This document shows positions 37,874-48,988 of a DNA stretch of 64,000 bases, one piece after another. Source of the stretch: Escherichia coli (GTDB lineage Bacteria > Pseudomonadota > Gammaproteobacteria > Enterobacterales > Enterobacteriaceae); assembly GCF_003790525.1 (NCBI RefSeq), contig NZ_CP033635.1, one strand, 5' to 3'. Positions within the stretch are counted from its first letter, which is position 1. Every line of letters begins with the position of its first letter. Below the pieces are notes generated by a model. The model was not told where the DNA came from. It worked only from the letters and a program-made list of their open reading frames with translations, and did not search any database. Made by a program: the position numbers and the translations under genes.

Positions 37874-38767
<894 letters not shown>

Positions 38768-39145: not shown

Positions 39146-40705
39146 TTACTTGATATCTTTCACGCGCATACCGTTGATCTGTTCATCCGTGATGGTGTTA
39201 CCCGCTTTGAAGTAATCAACCACGGCGTGATAAACGTAATAACCGCCCGTTGTGTTACGCGCTTTCCCTTCGGTAAAGGCGGTAAAACCATCTCCACCAT
39301 CAGCAAGGAAACTCTGAGTAGCAATGTGGTAAATCGTCGCATCTTCAATGGGTTTGCCATTCAGAGTCAGCGTGATTACCCGCTGACCAACCGGCTTACT
39401 GCTGTCGTACTTCATTTCCAGGCCTTTCGATACCTGTAAAACGCCATTACTCAAACTTGCGCCGTGTTCCATCAAACTGCGTAATTGTTTACCCGTGAGA
39501 TCCATCGTCACCAGTTCGTTGGGGAACGGGAAGGTACTGATGACGCCACCCATCGTAATTGCACCCGCCGGGATCTCATTGCGAATCCCGCCAGAGTTGG
39601 TTAACGCCAACTGGGTATTTTTACCCGCCGCTGCCAGCAAAGCGTCTGCCGCCAGGTTCCCGAGAGAAGCTGATTCACCATAGGCACGTTTTAGTTCAAC
39701 CGGCGATTGCGCCACCGTTTGTTGCACGACTTCATCCAGCTTTTTGTTCCAACTATCAATCACCTGTTTCGTTTGCGGATCGGGCTTCCACTCATCGGCG
39801 TAAAGGGTTTTAAGCTCGAAGTTTTTCACCGTAAAAGTGTGCGGCTTCTCTTTGTAGTCGAGAACCAGTTTACCGACATCAATCCCGCCGCTGTCAGTGG
39901 AGAGGATTAACGTATTGCCGACTTTAATCGGTTCCGGCGTACCCACATGTGCATGCCCGGTGATCAAAATATCCAACCCTTTCACCTGACTTGCCGTCTG
40001 AATATCTTTATCCAGTGCGCGACGCACATCCGTGCCTCCCATACTGGACTGGCGGGCCGGAACACCTTCGTGGATCAGGGCGACGGTTAGATCAACCTTG
40101 CCTTTGAGTTCATCGATATAACGTTGTAGCCATTTAATTTCATCACGCGCCTCAATACCCACTCGCGTTGCCGCAGATACCGTATCATTAAAGGCAAATA
40201 CACCGTGCAAACCAATCACGCCAATTTTCACGCCGTCTTTTTCAATGATGGTATAGGGCTTATCCCAGAATGATTTACTGCTGTTCTGATAAAAAACATT
40301 ACCCTGCACAATCGGGAATTTTGCCTGACTCAACTGTAATAACGTATTGTCCCAGCCGTGATCAAATTCATGATTACCTATAGTGACCGCATCGAATGGC
40401 ATGGTATTCATAATATCGATAATCGCCTTGCCTTTAGTCAGGCTGCTGATATACGGTCCGGTAAAATAGTCACCCGCATCAAAAAACCAGGTCGCTTTGT
40501 TTTTAGCTTTTTCTTGTTTAACAAGCGTAGTGATATTTGCCCAGCCGCCAATATCCCGTTTACCGTCAGCAATCCACGGCACTTTATAAGGCTCTACATG
40601 TGCATGGAGGTCGTTGGTATAAATGATGGTGACATCTTTGGCGCAAGCCCAAAACGGCAGTGTTAATGCGATACCCGCAGCAAGCATTTTAATTTTCATA
40701 AACAA
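39146..40705 (-). CDS. secreted bifunctional metallophosphatase / 5'-nucleotidase (UshA/CpdB family), paralogue 1
   Basis: 519-aa ORF with N-terminal signal peptide, calcineurin-like motifs ([23 protein letters not shown]) and a C-terminal 5'-nucleotidase-type domain. Absent from this position in K-12 as I recall it. Confidence 0.85.
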
Positions 40706-40831
40706 TCCCTTCCAGTGAGATAAAGGATTGCTACATTACGTTCTGAAAGGCTTTTTTATGTGAGAATACTCACATCCAGAGGCGATAACTGTAGGACAAA
40801 ATCAACGACCTTATGAAATCGTTGGTGATAT

Positions 40832-41959
40832 ATGTCAAATCTGTTTGCGATTAATGTCTGTAAAACGTTCGGTTGTCGAAATTTGGGATTGGCCTCATCG
40901 GAAGATTACAGTTGGCCAGACTATAAACTGGGTTTTCCGGCACTGCACTGCCAGGCATGCGGAAGTTACCCCCCTTTGTTTGATGAACAACAATTTCGTG
41001 ACTGGTTGTCAGTTCACATGACTGCGTGTGCCATAGAAACAGGGCATTTTTGTCCATCATGCTATTGTAAAGAAAAGATTTTTTATGGCCACAACCCGCA
41101 GGGAACACAACGCGTTCAATGCCGTTCATGCAAAAAAGTCTGGACTCCGAAACAGCAGCCAGCAAGAGAAATTACGTATCCCCAGTCCATTGAAACCGTT
41201 CAACTGTTCATGCCCTTTCAAGGAGCCAGCGCAGTACAAAAGCTCTATGTTTTAGTCAGTCTTGACGCCACTCGTGGCAACATCCTTCATCTCTCCACGA
41301 ATTATACGCAACATCAGACAGGAGACAGTCTGCGGTACAGTTACAGAGGCAATACAGAACCAACTGAGCACCATAGCGATATTGTGCAGAGGGTAGATAT
41401 GCGTGAAGCGCAATTCTTGCGCCGGAGCCAGTTCGATGAAATTCAGTATGGCAGTGCTGTGCTCAAGCGCAACGGCAAGGGAGCCATACTACGCCCGGTT
41501 ATCACGGCACACGGGCATTTCAGAATACTGAAAATCCGCTTTCCACATGTCAAAACGCATATCATTTCACACGAATGTTTTCTGAGAGGCGCAATTATTA
41601 CAGCCTGGGCAGATCAGTTCCGCCAACAACAAGGCGAACTTTGGTTCGTAGAAGAAGAAATCAGCGACCGTAACGCTGATATTCCCTGGCATTTTCAGGG
41701 AACGACATACCATGGTTGGTGGCAAAATCAGTGGCAACGCTGGGGGCAGGGGAATAACAGCAAGATGGTCTGCCTGCTCACAGGAGTCTCCTTAGAAAGG
41801 GGCGCAAATGTTTCTCTGGCAACCAGTCGTTGCTTTATCACATGGCTGACAGACCAACACGACTTTACCCAAAGCGCGTTATTATCCGCAGGTCGCGTAA
41901 CGAAAATGCTGACCTCACTGGCGTTAAAATACAATGAATCGCTCACTCCATCTTGTTAG
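40832..41959 (+). CDS. hypothetical Cys-rich protein with N-terminal zinc-ribbon-like motifs
   Basis: 375-aa ORF divergent from paralogue 1; first 100 residues contain C-x4-C, C-x2-C, CPSC-x-C and C-x2-C spacings; remainder unassignable by eye. Confidence 0.55.
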   Translation: MSNLFAINVCKTFGCRNLGLASSEDYSWPDYKLGFPALHCQACGSYPPLFDEQQFRDWLSVHMTACAIETGHFCPSCYCKEKIFYGHNPQGTQRVQCRSCKKVWTPKQQPAREITYPQSIETVQLFMPFQGASAVQKLYVLVSLDATRGNILHLSTNYTQHQTGDSLRYSYRGNTEPTEHHSDIVQRVDMREAQFLRRSQFDEIQYGSAVLKRNGKGAILRPVITAHGHFRILKIRFPHVKTHIISHECFLRGAIITAWADQFRQQQGELWFVEEEISDRNADIPWHFQGTTYHGWWQNQWQRWGQGNNSKMVCLLTGVSLERGANVSLATSRCFITWLTDQHDFTQSALLSAGRVTKMLTSLALKYNESLTPSC

Positions 41960-42188
41960 TCAATACACTCGACAAACGACCATAAATTAATGGGATCACT
42001 ATTTCTCATTTAATTAAATATATGAATATATGACTGAAAAATATAATCACAGTCAATGTTTAATTAATAACATTATTTGTTACCAAGATCACATAATACT
42101 TTCCTGACCTATGCTTACATAAAAATAAGACACGGTGTTCCTTTTATTTAAATAATTCAACCAATGTAACAACCCCTATCAAGGAGGG

Positions 42189-43741
42189 ATGATGAGAACT
42201 GTATTTACGACTTTATCAGTCATATTCAGCGTGATGTTTTCTCACAGTATACTAGCTCAGGACGTTACTATTTATTATACGAATGATATTCACGCACATG
42301 TCAATCCGGCAAAAATTCCCGCTGTTGATAAGAACAGACTTGTAGGTGGTATGGCTAATATTGCAGGCATCGTTAATGAAGCGAAGAAAAAAAACAAAGA
42401 TGTCTTTTTCTTTGATGCAGGCGACTATTTTACCGGTCCGTATATCAGTACCCTGACCAAAGGTGAAGCTATTATTGATATCATGAACACCATGCCCTTT
42501 GATGCGGTGTCCGTTGGTAATCACGAGTTCGATCACGGCGTGCCCAATATGGTATCTCAGTTATCAAAAGCAAAATTCCCCATTCTGCTGGGAAATATTT
42601 ACTACACCGATACAAATAAACCAGTTTGGGATCATCCGTGGACCATTATCGAAAAAGATGGTTTAAAGATTGGTGTGATTGGATTGCATGGTGCATTCGC
42701 TTTCTATGATACAGTCGCGGCAAAAGCACGTGAAGGCGTAGAAGCCAGAGACGAAATTAAATATTTAAATAAAGCACTTGCAGAATTAAAAGGTAAAGTC
42801 GACATTACCGTTTTGCTAATTCACGAAGGTGTTCCGGCGCGTCAATCAAGCTTTGGTAGTAAAGATGTGGAGCGGCTACTACAGGCAGATATTGAGACAG
42901 CTAAAAAAGTGAATGGTGTTGATGTCTTAATTACCGGTCACGCACATGTCGGAACACCGCAACCAATAAAAGTTAATAACACATTAATTGTATCTACCGA
43001 TGCATACGGCACCGACATCGGAAAACTTGTGCTTGATTACAATCCGAAAACAAAGAAAATTGATAGTTATAATGGTGAGTTAATCACCATCTTTGCAGAT
43101 CAATTTAAACCTGACACCATCGTTAAAATACTATCGATAAATGGAGCGTAAAGCTTAACAAAATAACACAGGAAGTTGTCGGCCATTCTCCCGTAGTTTT
43201 AACACGTGAGTATGGCAGTTCTTCTTCTACCGGTAATCTTATTCTGGATGCAATGATGGAAAAAACACCTGATGCCATTGCCGGATTTCAAAATAGCGGT
43301 GGGATGCGAGCTGATTTTCCTAAAGGTGATATCACACTGGGAGATGTTATTAGCACATTCCCCTTTAATAATGACCTCATCGAGATGGATTTGACGGGCC
43401 GCGATCTCAAATCGTTGATGACGCATGCAACCAATCTAACTAACGGTGTGTTACAGGTTTCAAAAAGCGTTGCGGTTGTCTATGACAGCAAAAAACCACT
43501 CAACCAACGGTTAATCTCTTTCACCATTAACGGCAAACCCGTGGAAGATAATCAAACATATCGTATTGCCACGCACTCCTTTTGTGCCAGTGGTGGTGAC
43601 GGTTTTGAAGCATTTTTGAATGGAAAAAATGTGAAGACGATACCGGGAACAACCTCGGCGGAATCTATCATCGATTATTTCAAAAATCATAAACCTGTCA
43701 CCCCAGACTTAACTAAACGAGTCATGGACGTCGCCAAATAA
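42189..43741 (+). pseudogene. frameshifted UshA-family 5'-nucleotidase, paralogue 2
   Basis: ORF 42189..43151 (320 aa; signal peptide and metallophosphatase motifs) stops at taa 43149-43151; homology to paralogues 1 and 3 continues in the +2 frame from about 43127 through ORF 43253..43741. The frame break lies near 43128-43140. Confidence 0.75.
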
Positions 43742-43775: not shown

Positions 43776-45401
43776 ATGCGAATGAAAACAGTGCAGCGTA
43801 CTTTACTTGCCGCAACATTGCTGACTATTTTTTCGGTCTCAGTCATGGCGCAGGATGTCACGATTATTTATACAAATGATCTTCACGCTCATGTGGATTC
43901 TTATAAAGTGCCGTATATCGCAGACGGAAAACGCGACATTGGCGGCTTTGCCAATATATCTACTTTAGTAAAACAGGAGAAAGCGAAAAATAAAGCCACC
44001 TTTTATTTTGATGCTGGAGACTATTTCACCGGCCCTTATATCAGCAGTCTGACAAAGGGCGAAGCAATAATTGACATTATGAATACCATGCCTTTTGACG
44101 CAGTATCAATCGGTAATCATGAGTTTGACCATGGCTGGGATAATGCCCTGCGACAATTAAGCAAAGCGAATTTTCCTGTTTTATTGGGCAATGTTTATCA
44201 TAAAGAGAGTGAGAACCCCTTCTGGAACAAGCCCTACACCATCCTGGAAAAAGATGGCATCAAGATTGGTATTATTGGGCTACACGGCGTATTTGCATTT
44301 AATGATACGGTCTCGGAGCTCTCTCTCCAGGGACTCGATAATGACAATAATAACCGCTTTGATAAATCTTCCGAGACCCTTAAGAATCAGGGGATTGAAG
44401 CACGTGATGAAGTGAAGTATTTGCAGCATTATATCGACGAGTTACGTGATAAGGTTGACCTCACTGTGGCGCTGGTTCATGAAGGCGTTCCGGCGCGTCA
44501 GTCCAGCATTGGCAATACAGATGTTAGACGCGCTCTTGATAAAGATATTCAAACCGCTAGCAAGGTGAAAGGATTGGATATTCTGATTACCGGGCATGCC
44601 CACGTCGGAACGCCAGAACCAATCAAAGTCGGCAACACCTTAATCCTTTCAACTGATAGTGGAGGTATCGATATTGGTAAATTAGTCCTTGATGTCAACC
44701 CTACAGCTCGTACCCATAAAATGAAGAGCTTTGAGCTGAAAACAGTTTATGCCGATGAATGGATACCCGATCCAACGACACAAAAAGTTATCAATGGCTG
44801 GAATAAAAAACTGGCGGATATTGTACGCCAACCAGTGGGTGAATCATCGATTGCATTAACTCGCGCCTATGGTGAGTCATCGCAACTAGGCAACCTGTTT
44901 ACCGATGCAATGCTTGTCGCTGCTCCGACTGCACAGATTGCATTGATAAACTCCGGCAGCTTACGTGCGGATATAAATGCAGGCACGATTACCTTTGGCG
45001 ACATTACCAGTACATTCCCCTTCAAGAATGAACTTACTGAAATGGATCTCAGCGGTAAGGATCTGCGTAACCTACTGGAACACGGGGCATCGCTTACCAA
45101 TGGCATCCTGCAAATGTCAAAAGGCGCAGAAATGCGCTATACCCCGCAGAAACCAGTAGGTCAGCGCATAGTATCTTTTAAAATTAATGGTGAAGAGATC
45201 GTTGATACGAATATTTACCATGTTGCAACAACGACTTTCCTTGCACTGGGGGGCGATGGTTTTCTGGCATTCAAAGAAGGGAAAAATGTTCAGGTCCGCG
45301 CCGGAAATAACATGTCCGATGTCGTGATCGATTATTTGAAGAAAGGCCACAAGATTACGCCTGCACAGGTAAATGAAATGCGGGTGGACGTTAGCAAATA
45401 A
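43776..45401 (+). CDS. secreted bifunctional metallophosphatase / 5'-nucleotidase (UshA/CpdB family), paralogue 3
   Basis: 541-aa ORF; signal peptide (…SVMAQD), NDLHAH / GDYFTG / GNHEFDHG motifs; closely similar to paralogue 1 apart from a ~20-aa insertion. Confidence 0.85.
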   Translation: MRMKTVQRTLLAATLLTIFSVSVMAQDVTIIYTNDLHAHVDSYKVPYIADGKRDIGGFANISTLVKQEKAKNKATFYFDAGDYFTGPYISSLTKGEAIIDIMNTMPFDAVSIGNHEFDHGWDNALRQLSKANFPVLLGNVYHKESENPFWNKPYTILEKDGIKIGIIGLHGVFAFNDTVSELSLQGLDNDNNNRFDKSSETLKNQGIEARDEVKYLQHYIDELRDKVDLTVALVHEGVPARQSSIGNTDVRRALDKDIQTASKVKGLDILITGHAHVGTPEPIKVGNTLILSTDSGGIDIGKLVLDVNPTARTHKMKSFELKTVYADEWIPDPTTQKVINGWNKKLADIVRQPVGESSIALTRAYGESSQLGNLFTDAMLVAAPTAQIALINSGSLRADINAGTITFGDITSTFPFKNELTEMDLSGKDLRNLLEHGASLTNGILQMSKGAEMRYTPQKPVGQRIVSFKINGEEIVDTNIYHVATTTFLALGGDGFLAFKEGKNVQVRAGNNMSDVVIDYLKKGHKITPAQVNEMRVDVSK

Positions 45402-45478: not shown

Positions 45479-46339
45479 ATGTGTATAAAAAAGCACGGGA
45501 TAGCTTTATCGATTCTATTAATACCTTGCATTGGAAACGCTCAGGAAATTAAAAGTGAGGAAGGCTGGTTACATCAAAGCTTGAATGTCATTGGTCGCAC
45601 AGACTCTCGCTTTGGCCCAAGGCTGACTAACGACCTCTACCCTGAATATACTGTAGCAGGAAGAAAAGACTGGTTTGATTTTTATGGTTATGTTGATCTA
45701 CCAAAATTCTTTGGCGTCGGCAGTCACTATGATGTTGGGATCTGGGATGAGGGCTCACCACTATTTACGGAAATAGAACCTCGGTTTTCCATTGACAAAT
45801 TGACCGGATTAAATCTTGCGTTCGGCCCTTTTAAAGAATGGTTCATTGCAAACAACTATGTCTATGATATGGGTGACAACCAGTCATCCCGGCAAAGTAC
45901 ATGGTATATGGGGCTTGGTACAGATATCGACACGGGTCTACCAATTAAGCTTTCTGCCAATATATACGCCAAGTATCAGTGGCAAAACTATGGTGCCGCT
46001 AATGAAAATGAATGGGACGGATATCGATTCAAAATAAAATATAGCATTCCTCTTACCCATTTATTCGGAGGGCGATTGGTATACAATAGTTTTACTAACT
46101 TTGATTTTGGCTCCGATCTTGCGGACAAATCACACAATAATAAACGAACCAGTAATGCTATTGCTTCAAGCCATATCCTTTCCCTGCTATATGAACACTG
46201 GAAATTTGCATTTACACTACGTTATTTTCACAACGGTGGACAATGGAATGCTGGGGAGAAAGTTAACTTCGGAGATGGTCCATTTGAATTAAAAAACACA
46301 GGATGGGGAACCTATACTACTATTGGTTATCAATTTTAA
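45479..46339 (+). CDS. Tsx-family nucleoside-specific outer-membrane channel
   Basis: 286-aa ORF with signal peptide; strong similarity to E. coli Tsx ([69 protein letters not shown]-terminal ...GYQF). Confidence 0.88.
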
Positions 46340-46555: not shown

Positions 46556-48988
46556 CTACAACAACTGCGCCAGACGGTTAATATCCGACTGAATCGCCCC
46601 GGCGGTGACATCGCGCCCTGCACCTGGCCCGCGGATCACCAGCGGGTTGTCGCGATACCAGCGGCTTTCGATGGCAAAGACGTTATCGCACGGTAGTAGT
46701 GATGCCAGCGGATGGTCTTCTCGCACCGCTTCCACGCCTACTCGCGCTTTGCCGTTGGCATCGAAACGCGCCACGTAGCGCAACACCAGCCCCATTTCAC
46801 GGGCCGCTTCCAACCGTTGTACCATCTGCTCATTAAGTTCATCGCCATTTTCAAAGAAATGGTCGATGCTTCCACCTTCGCAATGGGTTGGCACCAGTGA
46901 TTCAACACGCACCTGGTCCGGTTCAATGTTGTAACCCGCTTCACGCGCCAGAATCACCAGCTTGCGCATCACGTCTTTGCCGGAAAGGTCATCACGCGGA
47001 TCAGGCTCGGTTAAGCCCTGCTGCCACGCCTGATCCACCAGCTCGGTAAACGGCACGCTACCGTCGAATTGCAGGAACAGCCAGGAGAGCGTGCCAGAGA
47101 AGATCCCACTGATCGACAAAATGGTATCGCCGCTGTCGATCAGATCGCGCACGGTATGGTTGATCGGCAAACCCGCACCGACAGTGGCATTGTACAGCCA
47201 GTGACGCCCGGTTTTTTCGAAGGCGTCGTGGATCTGGCGATATTTATTGCTGTCGCTGGCTCCCGCCAGTTTGTTGGCGCTGATGACGTGGAAACCGTGG
47301 CTGGCAAAATCGAGATACTGATCAGCAAGCTGCTGGCTGGCGGTAACGTCCAGCACCACTAAATCATCATACGGATGGGCGCGCATCCACAGGAACAGCG
47401 ACTCTTCATCCTGCTCGACCGCTTCATCGTTGAAGAAGGCTAACGCGCGGCTGGCGTCCAGCCCGTCATAGCTCAACAGGCTGCGGCGGCTGTCCACCAC
47501 GCCTGCCAGCACAAATTCAAAGCCGGTACGCGCCGAAAGCGTGCTCTGCTCACGGGCGAACAGTTCCAGCCAGCGGGAACCGATATTGCCCTTGCCGAAC
47601 AATACCAGGCCGATGCGTTTTTCCGCGCGAAAGACGGACTGATGCAGACCCTGAATCAGGCTTTCGGTCGGCCCGGTGCGCAGTACTGCCACCAGGCTGA
47701 TGCCGTCATCGGACTGCCAGGTAAATTCGACCGGCTGGCCTTTCAGTTGCTGCCAGAAGCGGTGGCAATGCAGCGGGTTACGGGTTACGCCCGCCCCAAC
47801 CATCGCCACCAGCGCCAGCCCCTGACGCAGGCGCAGTTCGCCAGGTAATCCCGCTTCGTCGAGAATTTTCAGCGCACTGTCAGCGACTTCTGAGGTGTAG
47901 CAAAATTGCAGCAACTGGCGATCGTTATGTACGCCAACCGCCAGTGGGCGCACCTGAGCACGTTTCAGGATCTGGTCGATCTCTTTATGCGCCAGTTTGA
48001 AATCCTGACTGGCGGGCACCTGAAACTCAATCAAACAGACATCATCGTGGCTGGTGACAATACGCGCGCCAGTACCTGAGGCCAGCACGCGTTCAATGCG
48101 CGTGGAACCTTGATCCGGCGTGTAGCTACAGCGCAGTTGCAGGTCGATTTCACTACCGGATACTGGCTGTAAAGTACGGGCGTGAAGAACGGGGGCCGCC
48201 AGACGCGCCAGTTCACTGGCTTCATCAAGACGCAGCAATGGCAGCAGACAGGCATCTTTCACTTTACGCGGGTCGGCGCTGTATACCCCGGCGACGTCGC
48301 TCCAGATGGTTACGCGAGAAACACCCGCCAGCGCACCGATTTGTGTCGCGGAATAGTCGGAACCGTTACGCCCCAGCAGCACCGTTTCACCGGCGTTGTT
48401 ACGGCTGATAAACCCGGTCACCACCAGACGTTTGCCCGGATGTTGTACCAGTAGCTGTTGCAGCAACGGGTAAGAAAGCCCTTCATCAACCTGCGGCTGC
48501 GCGGCGCGTTCAGCGCGTAAAAACTCGCGGGCATCAAGCCAGGCCGCTGGCAGCCCTTGTTGATTAAGTACCGCAGACATCAGGCGCGCCGACCACACTT
48601 CACCGTGGCCCACCACTTCTGCATACACCGCATCGTTAATACCGCTGTCGAGCAGCGCCGCCAGGCGTTCCAGATCGCTGACAAAAGCGCTAATGAGGCT
48701 ATCGGCTTCTTCAGCGGGTAGCAGGCCGCTAATCAGATCGCACTGATAACGACGTAGCGTTTGTTGAACCTGATGCGCAGAGAGACGATCGGTCTGGCTT
48801 AGTTTCAACCAGTTAATCAACTGGTTAGTGGTGCTACCGGCGGCGGAAACCACCATCATATCGTCAGGCTGAGAGTACTCCGCCATAATGCCCGCGACAC
48901 GCAAATAACACTTCACATCAGCCAGACTACTGCCACCAAATTTATGCAGTTGACGACCTTTCGCCCCTGCCTGCGCAATCACACTCAT
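46556..48988 (-). CDS. metL: bifunctional aspartokinase II / homoserine dehydrogenase II
   Basis: 810-aa ORF directly downstream of metB. Confidence 0.95.
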   Translation of the reverse strand: MSVIAQAGAKGRQLHKFGGSSLADVKCYLRVAGIMAEYSQPDDMMVVSAAGSTTNQLINWLKLSQTDRLSAHQVQQTLRRYQCDLISGLLPAEEADSLISAFVSDLERLAALLDSGINDAVYAEVVGHGEVWSARLMSAVLNQQGLPAAWLDAREFLRAERAAQPQVDEGLSYPLLQQLLVQHPGKRLVVTGFISRNNAGETVLLGRNGSDYSATQIGALAGVSRVTIWSDVAGVYSADPRKVKDACLLPLLRLDEASELARLAAPVLHARTLQPVSGSEIDLQLRCSYTPDQGSTRIERVLASGTGARIVTSHDDVCLIEFQVPASQDFKLAHKEIDQILKRAQVRPLAVGVHNDRQLLQFCYTSEVADSALKILDEAGLPGELRLRQGLALVAMVGAGVTRNPLHCHRFWQQLKGQPVEFTWQSDDGISLVAVLRTGPTESLIQGLHQSVFRAEKRIGLVLFGKGNIGSRWLELFAREQSTLSARTGFEFVLAGVVDSRRSLLSYDGLDASRALAFFNDEAVEQDEESLFLWMRAHPYDDLVVLDVTASQQLADQYLDFASHGFHVISANKLAGASDSNKYRQIHDAFEKTGRHWLYNATVGAGLPINHTVRDLIDSGDTILSISGIFSGTLSWLFLQFDGSVPFTELVDQAWQQGLTEPDPRDDLSGKDVMRKLVILAREAGYNIEPDQVRVESLVPTHCEGGSIDHFFENGDELNEQMVQRLEAAREMGLVLRYVARFDANGKARVGVEAVREDHPLASLLPCDNVFAIESRWYRDNPLVIRGPGAGRDVTAGAIQSDINRLAQLL

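What the first reader, a model, noticed from the sequence alone, without database searches (positions are those of the whole stretch)
40832..41959. Cys-rich 375-aa ORF of unknown function divergent from nucleotidase paralogue 1
The N-terminal ~100 residues contain four pairs of cysteines (…CKTFGC…, …HCQACGS…, …CPSCYC…, …CRSCKK…) spaced as in zinc-ribbon modules; the CPSC … R-x-x-C-x-x-C-K-K-x-W arrangement resembles the zinc-ribbon seen at the N-terminus of some IS-family transposases. The remainder, including a Trp/Gln-rich stretch (WHFQGTTYHGWWQNQWQRWGQG), is not recognisable by eye. It could be a regulator of the islet or a decayed or domesticated transposase marking how the islet arrived.
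Basis: partly seen in the sequence, partly recalled or inferred. Interest (0 to 1): 0.5.

Follow-up and report, generated by a model that had tools for sequence, protein, structure and literature searches.

The report
Tamed IS1 transposase beside nucleotidase genes
This 375-residue protein is a former IS1-type "jumping gene" enzyme that has lost its cutting residues and its mobility, is kept as a single conserved host gene next to nucleotide- and nucleoside-scavenging genes in many gut and marine bacteria, and most likely controls those genes, although no experiment has yet shown this.

Summary
The ORF (40832..41959, +) is real, intact and under purifying selection (dN/dS 0.09-0.24). The four cysteine pairs form two zinc ribbons. 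The second is homologous to the IS1 InsA ribbon (hhalign 96.5%, E 7.5e-10 for the family profile).

It does not behave as a transposase:
- One copy per genome, in 1841 of 5426 complete E. coli genomes.
- Same metF-metL position in Escherichia, Salmonella, Citrobacter, Klebsiella and others.
- No terminal repeats.
- No conserved acidic residue where the first two catalytic aspartates should sit.
- This clade has also deleted the InsA-like helix-turn-helix.

In 37 of 39 enterobacterial loci it lies divergent from a 5'-nucleotidase. Ten of 11 relatives at 20-40% identity (Vibrio, Photobacterium, Salmonella, metagenomes) sit beside nucleotidase, deo, nupC/nupG-type or phosphatase genes.

Best reading: an exapted IS1-like transposase acting as a locus-specific regulator of nucleotide/nucleoside scavenging. 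That function is inferred only. I found no published description.

The parts
40832..41959 (+). 375-aa ORF: exapted IS1-like transposase ('cytoplasmic protein' family)
40853..40972 (+). Zinc ribbon 1 (residues 8-47; C10, C15, C40, C43; motif N-x-C-K-x-x-G-C ... H-C-x-x-C-G). It has no match in any domain library.
41045..41146 (+). Zinc ribbon 2 (residues 72-105; C74, C77, C97, C100), homologous to the IS1 InsA N-terminal ribbon
41180..41626 (+). RNase H-like (DDE-transposase type) core, residues 117-265: b1 119-129, b2 136-145, b3 151-156, a1 184-197, b4 218-220, a2 222-236, b5 242-246. No conserved acid on b1 or after b4. E248 is conserved as E or D in all 54 sequences.
41627..41785 (+). Four-stranded beta insertion (residues 266-318). 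It contains the Trp/Gln-rich stretch and the conserved W296, W297 and W301.
41786..41956 (+). C-terminal helical bundle (residues 319-375) with the near-invariant N368 ('YN' motif)
40700..40831 (.). 132-nt divergent control region between nucleotidase 1 and the ORF. Its length and several sequence blocks are conserved across more than 10 genera.
40759..40774 (.). Perfect CRP-type core site TGTGA-N6-TCACA, about 67 bp from the nucleotidase-1 start codon and about 65 bp from the ORF start codon. The TCACA half is invariant in 18 aligned loci.
40736..40749 (.). Conserved block TTACGTTCTGAAAG: candidate operator or promoter element on the nucleotidase side
40797..40826 (.). Conserved CAAAATCAACGACC-N5-AAATCGTTGGT, containing the inverted repeat CAACGA-N10-TCGTTG (40803..40824). 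The 11-mer AAATCGTTGGT (40816..40826) is invariant in 18 loci. Candidate operator or 5'-UTR element of the ORF.
39146..40699 (-). 5'-nucleotidase paralogue 1 (Metallophos + 5_nucleotid_C, signal peptide), the conserved divergent partner of the ORF
42192..43741 (+). 5'-nucleotidase paralogue 2, frameshifted in this window by a 1-nt deletion at 43125
42078..42093 (.). Second CRP-like site (1 mismatch), upstream of nucleotidase 2
43776..45401 (+). 5'-nucleotidase paralogue 3
45479..46339 (+). Tsx-type nucleoside channel gene

Best explanation
The ORF encodes a domesticated (exapted) IS1-family transposase. It keeps the InsA-type zinc ribbon and has a second zinc ribbon in front of it. It also keeps the RNase H-like core, but it has lost the first two catalytic carboxylates, the terminal repeats and all mobility. 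In this enterobacterial clade it has also lost the InsA-like helix-turn-helix.

It is now a vertically inherited, single-copy host gene that is functionally tied to periplasmic nucleotide hydrolysis and nucleoside uptake and catabolism.

Most likely mechanism (inferred, not shown):
1. The protein binds the conserved 132-bp divergent control region through its zinc ribbons. Candidate sites are AAATCGTTGGT / CAACGA-N10-TCGTTG at 40803..40826 and TTACGTTCTGAAAG at 40736..40749.
2. Together with CRP bound at 40759..40774, it sets transcription of the nucleotidase gene and of its own gene. Here it may also act on the downstream nucleotidase-nucleotidase-tsx genes.
3. The dead catalytic core and the Trp-rich beta insertion serve for oligomerisation and/or for sensing a nucleoside or nucleotide signal.

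Shown: homology, fold, loss of the canonical triad, immobility, synteny, purifying selection, gene linkage.
Inferred: DNA binding, targets, direction of regulation, effector.

The confidence of 0.55 is for the regulator mechanism. The narrower claim, an exapted and immobile IS1 derivative functionally linked to these genes, I put at about 0.9.
For: Origin:
- The family profile aligns to IS1 InsAB' residues 5-87 (Zn ribbon + HTH) with 96.5% probability, E 7.5e-10.
- NCBIfam IS1 and IS1_IS1595_Zn models hit relatives at E 1e-9 to 1e-5.
- AF2 model: pLDDT 92.8, pTM 0.92.

Not a working transposase:
- Only D145 (74% D/E), D202 (83%) and E248 (100%) are conserved acidic columns. None lies on b1 (119-129) or after b4 (220-224).
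- No TIRs and no IS1 ends.
- Exactly one copy in each of 1841 E. coli genomes.

Host gene:
- Same metF-metL position in E. coli, Citrobacter, Klebsiella, Kosakonia, Kluyvera, Salmonella and others.
- dN/dS 0.09-0.24.

Functional linkage:
- Divergent from a nucleotidase in 37 of 39 enterobacterial loci, with a ~130-160-nt spacer.
- Relatives at 20-40% identity lie beside: porin + acid phosphatase + cNMP phosphodiesterase; 5'-nucleotidase; tal-add-deoCABD and a Bmp nucleoside ABC transporter; tsx-nucleotidase; PNP; nupC-add; deoB-deoD-nupG-like genes. That is 10 of 11 lineages.

Control region:
- Conserved CRP-type site and invariant blocks.

Background knowledge: IS1 InsA itself is a DNA-binding transcriptional repressor.
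Against: - No experiment and no DNA-binding data exist.
- The window protein lacks the HTH that its relatives and InsA have. DNA binding would have to rest on the zinc ribbons.
- The conserved intergenic blocks could be ordinary promoter, RBS or CRP/CytR elements rather than sites for this protein. None recurs elsewhere in the window.
- One deep lineage (P0165) has no nucleoside gene nearby.
- Conserved H229, H247, E248 and D202 could form a non-canonical active site.
- The positions of the lost catalytic residues were inferred from secondary-structure order, not from a residue-level superposition.
Confidence: 0.55

Rival explanations
1. It is a cytoplasmic enzyme or nucleic-acid/nucleotide-binding factor of nucleoside metabolism rather than a transcription factor. 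The RNase H-like core would have been rebuilt around a new set of conserved polar residues (D202, H229, H247, E248, R252, N368).
For: - Invariant or near-invariant R198, H229, H247, E248, R252 and N368 in the core.
- The HTH has been lost in this clade.
- Some relatives lie inside catabolic operons directly after a nucleotidase or PNP gene.
Against: - The two DNA-binding-type zinc ribbons are retained throughout the family, and most of the family also keeps the InsA-like HTH.
- The commonest arrangement is the divergent one typical of regulators.
- No similarity to any enzyme family other than transposases.
Confidence: 0.15
2. It is a decaying relic of an IS element that once delivered the nucleotidase islet, with no present function.
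For: IS1-type zinc ribbon and transposase fold. Truncated copies exist in a few lineages: Kluyvera genomosp. 3, Salmonella arizonae.
Against: - Full-length and intact in about 1840 E. coli genomes and in many genera.
- dN/dS 0.09-0.24.
- Family conserved down to about 20% identity, with the same gene neighbours.
- No TIRs.
- The pair is also present where the extra islet genes are absent.
Confidence: 0.03
3. It is the active transposase of an undescribed IS1-related element.
For: Public annotation pipelines label some relatives 'IS1 family transposase'.
Against: - One copy per genome and a fixed chromosomal position.
- No inverted repeats.
- All relatives score below the NCBIfam IS1 cutoff: at most 38 bits against 100.
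- No conserved acidic residues at two of the three triad positions.
- Hits in the plasmid and phage collections are mislabelled chromosome pieces or chromids.
Confidence: 0.02
4. It has another host role that uses transposase-like DNA recognition, such as site-specific DNA rearrangement (phase variation) of the nucleotidase promoter, or a defence or stress function that happens to be linked to these loci.
For: Transposase-derived fold. High allelic divergence within E. coli: ORF dS 1.6 against 0.33 for the neighbouring nucleotidase.
Against: - No PADLOC match for the window protein.
- The intergenic region is collinear in all 18 aligned loci, with no sign of inversion.
- No conserved acidic residue at the first two triad positions.
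- The allelic divergence is explained by replacement of the ORF allele together with the nuc2-nuc3-tsx genes.
Confidence: 0.08

Closest known systems
IS1 family transposase InsAB' and its N-terminal product InsA (E. coli IS1)
   Same: - CPxC-x8-(Y/N)G-x-(T/S)-xxG-x-QR-xx-C-xx-C zinc ribbon.
- In most family members the following helix-turn-helix as well (hhalign 96.5%; NCBIfam).
- RNase H-like core whose nearest structural neighbours are IS1 transposases.
- From background knowledge, InsA is a DNA-binding repressor, so the retained module has a known regulatory precedent.
   Different: - Extra N-terminal zinc ribbon.
- About 150 aa larger core, with a Trp-rich beta insertion and a helical tail.
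- No acidic residue at the first two triad positions.
- No frameshifted two-ORF organisation.
- No terminal repeats.
- Single copy and syntenic.
- The window protein has deleted the HTH.
- Scores 20 bits against the family cutoff of 100.
Exapted transposon proteins that act as transcription factors: bacterial TnpB-derived TldR (PMC10705468) and eukaryotic FHY3/FAR1- or CENP-B-type domesticated DDE transposases (background knowledge)
   Same: A transposon-derived protein that has lost its catalytic residues and mobility, is under purifying selection, is syntenic across species, and sits next to the host genes it is proposed to control.
   Different: - TldR derives from an RNA-guided RuvC nuclease, not from a DDE transposase, and uses a guide RNA. 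No RNA family or guide-like element was found here.
- The eukaryotic cases are not bacterial.
- Regulation by the present protein is inferred, not demonstrated.
CytR/DeoR/XapR-type regulators of nucleoside catabolism and uptake in Enterobacteria
   Same: Association with tsx, deo, nup and nucleotidase genes, and with CRP-dependent promoters.
   Different: No sequence or fold relationship: it is not LacI, DeoR or LysR type. It has zinc ribbons plus a dead transposase core.
Genomic region 'GR 31 metL..metF' of ExPEC/APEC strains (PMC12928451)
   Same: The same islet: Tsx-like ORF plus three UshA-like nucleotidase ORFs between metL and metF.
   Different: The passages retrieved from that paper (table rows and discussion of GR 31) list only the Tsx-like ORF and the three UshA-like ORFs. 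The 375-aa ORF falls in the unlisted interval between ORF 331 and ORF 431. I searched the paper only for 'nucleotidase', 'metL' and 'Tsx'.

Membership tests
IS1 family transposase (NCBIfam NF033558 / ISfinder IS1) | InsA-type N-terminal zinc ribbon | tested here: met
   Window protein: Pfam PF03811 E 0.043, NF033558 E 4e-4. Family profile against InsAB': 96.5% probability. 7 of 54 relatives at E<=1e-3.
IS1 family transposase (NCBIfam NF033558 / ISfinder IS1) | Helix-turn-helix following the ribbon | tested here: not met
   The window protein has a gap across the HTH columns. Relatives have three helices there (model of P0140).
IS1 family transposase (NCBIfam NF033558 / ISfinder IS1) | Intact DDE catalytic triad on the RNase H-like core | tested here: not met
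   The fold is present. No conserved D/E on b1 or after b4; only E248 is universal. Positions were assigned from secondary-structure order, not from a superposition.
IS1 family transposase (NCBIfam NF033558 / ISfinder IS1) | Terminal inverted repeats flanking the gene | tested here: not met
   Only a 16-nt, 88% pair that overlaps the CRP site. No IS1 end sequence in 64 kb. In other E. coli lineages the ORF abuts metL directly.
IS1 family transposase (NCBIfam NF033558 / ISfinder IS1) | Multiple or variable genomic positions (mobility) | tested here: not met
   One place per genome in 1841 E. coli genomes. Fixed synteny across genera.
IS1 family transposase (NCBIfam NF033558 / ISfinder IS1) | Score above the curated family cutoff (100 bits) | tested here: not met
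   20.4 bits for the window protein; at most 38.3 bits for relatives.
IS1/IS1595 N-terminal zinc-binding domain (NF050000) | Score above the curated cutoff (28 bits) | tested here: not met
   Window protein 15.1 bits. Relatives P0142 (34.3), P0123 (31.4) and P0145 (32.3) pass.
Exapted (domesticated) transposase | Homology to a transposase, loss of ends and mobility, orthologues in the same position across species, purifying selection | tested here: met
   homology; no ends, single copy; synteny; dN/dS 0.09-0.24
Locus-specific transcription regulator | Conserved adjacency (typically divergent) to the regulated genes | tested here: met
   37 of 39 enterobacterial loci. 10 of 11 deep lineages next to nucleoside/nucleotide genes.
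Locus-specific transcription regulator | Sequence-specific binding to an operator in the target promoter | not testable with these tools
   Candidate conserved blocks were found. They could be ordinary promoter, RBS or CRP elements.
Locus-specific transcription regulator | Recognised DNA-binding domain | tested here: inconclusive
   Two zinc ribbons are present. The HTH of relatives is absent from this protein.

The most novel reading that the evidence does not exclude
A whole family of gammaproteobacterial proteins, currently annotated 'cytoplasmic protein', 'hypothetical' or wrongly 'IS1 family transposase', is a DDE (IS1) transposase exapted into a transcription factor. It would control extracellular nucleotide hydrolysis and nucleoside uptake and catabolism, with the dead catalytic core reused as a sensor or oligomerisation domain. 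I know of no other bacterial case of a DDE transposase turned into a dedicated metabolic regulator; six literature searches turned up none.
Probability: 0.45. Interest if true: 0.75.

Novelty: new variant of a known kind. Interest (0 to 1): 0.62.

Why it matters
Exaptation of DDE transposases into host regulators is well documented in eukaryotes. A 2022 review of prokaryotic MGE exaptation (PMC8987985) contains no occurrence of 'DDE' or 'IS1', and its four mentions of 'transposase' concern only CRISPR origins.

Here a single-copy, syntenic, selected IS1 derivative is linked to nucleotide and nucleoside scavenging across Enterobacterales and Vibrionales. This gives:
- a concrete, easily testable candidate regulator for an ExPEC-associated nucleotidase/Tsx islet and its widespread core;
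- a correction for systematic misannotation ('IS1 family transposase', 'lactate dehydrogenase', 'cytoplasmic protein');
- a bacterial model for how a transposase is tamed, including stepwise loss of the HTH.

Tried and rejected
- **Domain libraries.** Pfam, NCBIfam, PHROGs and PADLOC on the window protein gave only weak zinc-ribbon hits.
- **PDB by sequence.** The profile search returned only cysteine-driven matches to C2H2 zinc fingers. I treated these as compositional.
- **hhalign against IS1 InsAB'.** It aligned only the N-terminal ribbon and HTH, not the catalytic domain.
- **Terminal inverted repeats.** The long 'inverted repeats' are just the nucleotidase paralogues. The only pair flanking the ORF is 16 nt and overlaps the CRP site. 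No IS1 end was found.
- **Rfam.** Nothing across the islet at E<=1.
- **The 40803..40824 hairpin.** It scores as terminator-like on the minus strand only. As a plus-strand RNA it has only 6 bp, and the variation in its left arm does not covary convincingly. I therefore do not claim an RNA element.
- **Extra copies of the conserved blocks.** None in the window beyond chance. The AACGACC repeat after the stop codon (41975..41981) is not significant.
- **Genome-contig scans.** The two broad alignments failed for lack of a conserved stretch; the narrower enterobacterial alignment worked.
- **Plasmid and phage carriage.** The best-covering hits are mislabelled chromosomes, fragments or chromids; only one was inspected.
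- **Literature.** Seven searches found no description of the family.
Full report
**1. The observation**

The window matches the E. coli SMS-3-5 chromosome (100% identity over 40706..42188). ORF 40832..41959 (+) is RefSeq WP_000067197.1, 'hypothetical protein'.

It lies in an islet between metF (37874..38764, -) and metL (46556..48988, -). The order is nucleotidase 1 (39146..40699, -), then divergently the ORF, then nucleotidase 2, nucleotidase 3 and a tsx-like gene.

The Trp/Gln-rich stretch is residues 286-307. In a 54-sequence family alignment reaching about 20% identity, all eight cysteines are conserved in at least 83% of sequences, with C97 and C100 invariant. W296, W297 and W301 are conserved in at least 87%.

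**2. It is a real, selected gene**

Against orthologues from other E. coli lineages and other genera, dN/dS is 0.09-0.24. The neighbouring nucleotidase gives 0.02-0.06. The ORF is annotated as an intact CDS in the E. coli genomes sampled.

**3. What the protein is**

- *Library searches on the window protein alone are weak.* NCBIfam IS1 transposase gives E 4e-4 (20 bits against a cutoff of 100). IS1_IS1595_Zn gives E 0.026. Pfam Zn_ribbon_InsA gives E 0.043, residues 74-101.
- *The family is large.* An exhaustive phmmer search found 123 representative clusters. Full-length relatives are 400-520 aa at 20-35% identity.
- *Relatives hit IS1 models more strongly.* They match NF033558 positions 1-81/87 at E 1e-9 to 1e-5. 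Three pass the curated cutoff of the IS1/IS1595 zinc-binding domain. Seven of 54 hit Pfam Zn_ribbon_InsA at E<=1e-3.
- *Profile comparison.* hhalign of the family alignment against IS1 InsAB' gave 96.5% probability, E 7.5e-10. Family columns 71-151 match InsA residues 5-87, which are the zinc ribbon plus helix-turn-helix.
- *The HTH is missing here.* In that alignment the window protein has a gap across the HTH.
- *Structure of the window protein.* AlphaFold2 with the family alignment gave pLDDT 92.8, pTM 0.92. In order it shows: zinc ribbon 1, a long helix, zinc ribbon 2, a b1-b2-b3-a1-b4-a2-b5 core, a four-stranded beta insertion holding the Trp-rich stretch, and a helical tail.
- *A relative with the HTH.* A second model, of the Vibrio taketomensis relative P0140 (pLDDT 94.2), has the same architecture plus three helices (112-158) between ribbon 2 and the core. 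The E. coli/Citrobacter/Klebsiella clade has deleted this module.

**4. It is not a working transposase**

- Across the 54 sequences only three columns are mostly acidic: D145 (74%), D202 (83%) and E248 (100% E or D).
- No conserved acid lies on b1 (119-129), where the first catalytic Asp of RNase H-fold transposases sits. None follows b4 (218-220), where the sequence is R221-P222.
- This mapping rests on secondary-structure order, because no residue-level superposition was available.
- There are no terminal inverted repeats. The long 'repeats' in the region are the nucleotidase paralogues. The only pair flanking the ORF is 16 nt at 88% and overlaps the CRP site.
- No IS1 end sequence occurs anywhere in the window.
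- Exactly one copy is present in each of 1841 of 5426 complete E. coli genomes.
- The one 'plasmid' hit I inspected (Salmonella Senftenberg 'plasmid 3') carries gldA, katG, metF, metL, metB and metJ and is clearly chromosomal. Several other best-covering hits are 4.9-5.4 Mb records or Vibrio/Photobacterium chromids, and all 18 are typed non-mobilizable.

**5. Synteny**

The three E. coli allele groups (>=99%, about 91.7% and about 76% nucleotide identity) all lie at metF-metL. The about-76% group carries only the nucleotidase<->ORF pair, and there the ORF's end overlaps the end of metL.

A scan of one genome per species found 39 loci. They come from Escherichia, Citrobacter, Klebsiella, Enterobacter, Kosakonia, Phytobacter, Kluyvera, Pluralibacter, Pseudocitrobacter, Silvania, Superficieibacter, Rahnella, Atlantibacter and Salmonella.

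- In 37 of the 39 loci a nucleotidase gene lies divergently upstream, with a spacer of about 130-160 nt.
- Of the two exceptions, one has no upstream flank and the other is a fragment.
- Most loci are at metF-metL.
- A second paralogous locus type, (nuc)-tsx-nuc-nuc <-> ORF, lies elsewhere, and some genomes carry both types.

The pair is therefore old and vertically kept, and the ORF does not mark the arrival of the islet.

In the window lineage the ORF allele seems to have been replaced together with nuc2-nuc3-tsx. Between the window and the about-76% E. coli allele, ORF dS is 1.6 while the adjacent nucleotidase has dS 0.33.

**6. Gene linkage in distant relatives**

Relatives at 20-40% identity were looked up one by one.

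| Relative | Organism | Neighbouring genes |
|---|---|---|
| P0142 | Salmonella | divergent from porin, class B acid phosphatase, class II cNMP phosphodiesterase |
| P0173 | Vibrio scophthalmi | 26 nt downstream of a 5'-nucleotidase |
| P0149 | metagenome | divergent from tal-add-deoC-deoA-deoB-deoD, beside a Bmp nucleoside ABC transporter |
| P0162 | (Logan assembly) | near tsx-nucleotidase and a sulfatase/phosphodiesterase-type gene |
| P0201 | Thaumasiovibrio | just after a nucleoside phosphorylase |
| P0140 | V. taketomensis | divergent from a 5'-nucleotidase, 127-nt spacer |
| P0264 | V. brasiliensis | after nupC-add, near a PNP_UDP_1-family gene |
| P0132 | Photobacterium | divergent from a 5'-nucleotidase |
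| P0145 | (Logan assembly) | divergent from deoB-deoD and a nucleoside:H+ symporter |
| P0165 | (Logan assembly) | between matP and a radical-SAM gene; no nucleoside gene |

Counting the enterobacterial clade, 10 of 11 deep lineages are tied to nucleotide or nucleoside scavenging. This is the main functional evidence.

**7. The control region**

An alignment of 18 intergenic regions from more than 10 genera and both locus types shows four conserved elements:
- TTACGTTCTGAAAG at 40736..40749.
- A CRP-type site, which in the window is the perfect core TGTGA-N6-TCACA at 40759..40774. The TCACA half is invariant.
- CAAAATCA(N)CGACC at 40797..40810.
- An invariant 11-mer AAATCGTTGGT at 40816..40826. 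Together with the previous block it forms the inverted repeat CAACGA-N10-TCGTTG at 40803..40824.

The CRP centre (40766.5) is about 67 and 65 bp from the two start codons. By my own reading, this geometry would let one CRP dimer serve both divergent promoters as a class II site.

A second CRP-like site with one mismatch lies upstream of nucleotidase 2, at 42078..42093.

No Rfam family matches. I do not claim an RNA element, because the plus-strand stem is only 6 bp and the left-arm variation does not covary.

**8. Most likely mechanism**

The protein is an exapted IS1-like transposase that now serves as a locus-specific regulator of nucleotide and nucleoside scavenging genes. It probably binds the conserved blocks of the divergent region through its zinc ribbons and acts together with CRP. 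The dead core and the Trp-rich insertion would then be used for oligomerisation or for sensing a nucleoside or nucleotide.

- Shown: origin, fold, loss of the canonical triad positions, immobility, synteny, selection and gene linkage.
- Inferred: DNA binding, targets, sign of regulation, effector.
- Main weakness: this clade has lost the HTH.

I put about 0.9 on 'exapted, immobile IS1 derivative functionally linked to these genes', and about 0.55 on 'transcription regulator' specifically.

**9. Rivals**

- A repurposed enzyme or binding factor built around H229, H247, E248 and D202: about 0.15.
- Another DNA-directed host role, such as promoter rearrangement or defence: about 0.08.
- A decaying relic: about 0.03.
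- An active transposase: about 0.02.

**10. Comparison with what is known, and novelty**

The closest known relative is IS1 InsA/InsAB'. The protein fails the family's defining tests: HTH, DDE triad, terminal repeats, mobility and score cutoff.

Functionally it resembles exapted transposon proteins such as the TnpB-derived TldR repressors (PMC10705468) and eukaryotic DDE-derived transcription factors.

The islet is described as 'GR 31 metL..metF' in ExPEC/APEC strains (PMC12928451). The passages I retrieved from that paper list only the Tsx-like and the three UshA-like ORFs. Seven literature searches found nothing on the family.

Public annotations are 'cytoplasmic protein', 'hypothetical protein', 'IS1 family transposase' or even 'lactate dehydrogenase'.

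I rate it a new variant of a known kind (an exapted transposase), with interest 0.62.

Noticed in passing
window 43125 (nucleotidase 2, 42192..43741): Relative to SMS-3-5 RefSeq the window has a 1-nt deletion (CGTTCAAAATAC -> CGTTAAAATAC). It frameshifts nucleotidase paralogue 2 into two ORFs, 42189..43151 and 43253..43741. Up to that base the window and the RefSeq record are identical. This is either a pseudogene in this strain or a sequencing error.
   Followed up: partly
window 45479..46339: RefSeq marks the tsx-like gene of SMS-3-5 as a pseudogene 'missing C-terminus' (846 nt). The window carries an uninterrupted 861-nt ORF, the same length as the intact B2-strain gene.
   Followed up: no
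window 42078..42093: A second CRP-like site (TGTTACCAAGATCACA, 1 mismatch) lies about 100 bp upstream of nucleotidase 2. The downstream nuc2-nuc3-tsx genes may therefore also be cAMP-CRP dependent.
   Followed up: no
window 40832..41959 compared with L003 8001-9131: Within E. coli the ORF alleles differ far more (dS 1.6, 73% aa identity) than the adjacent nucleotidase 1 (dS 0.33, 98% aa identity). This points to replacement of the ORF allele together with nuc2-nuc3-tsx by recombination. In the allele group without those genes, the ORF's 3' end overlaps the 3' end of metL by about 37 nt.
   Followed up: partly
L046 (Kluyvera genomosp. 3) and L048 (Salmonella arizonae): In Kluyvera genomosp. 3 the nucleotidase (split into two tblastn pieces) and the ORF (truncated at 210 aa) both look degraded. 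In S. arizonae only residues 127-368 of the ORF remain, next to an intact nucleotidase.
   Followed up: no
L019/L045, L021/L026, L034/L049, L016/L051: Several genomes carry two paralogous copies of the nucleotidase<->ORF module at different loci: the metF-metL type and a tsx-nuc-nuc type. Vibrio sinensis also has two family members in AFDB.
   Followed up: no
L059 5820..6000: The public gene call for the Photobacterium relative P0132 is N-terminally truncated. Zinc ribbon 1 is encoded upstream, from a GTG start.
   Followed up: partly
AFDB and NCBI names of relatives: Family members are inconsistently or wrongly named in public databases: 'IS1 family transposase', 'Transposase and inactivated derivatives', 'Lactate dehydrogenase', 'cytoplasmic protein'.
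   Followed up: no
window 41960..42000: The 41 nt after the ORF stop codon are 100% identical between the window and the B2 allele, although the ORFs are only 91.7% identical. The stretch contains AACGACC (41975..41981), which also occurs in the conserved block upstream of the ORF. This is not statistically significant.
   Followed up: partly
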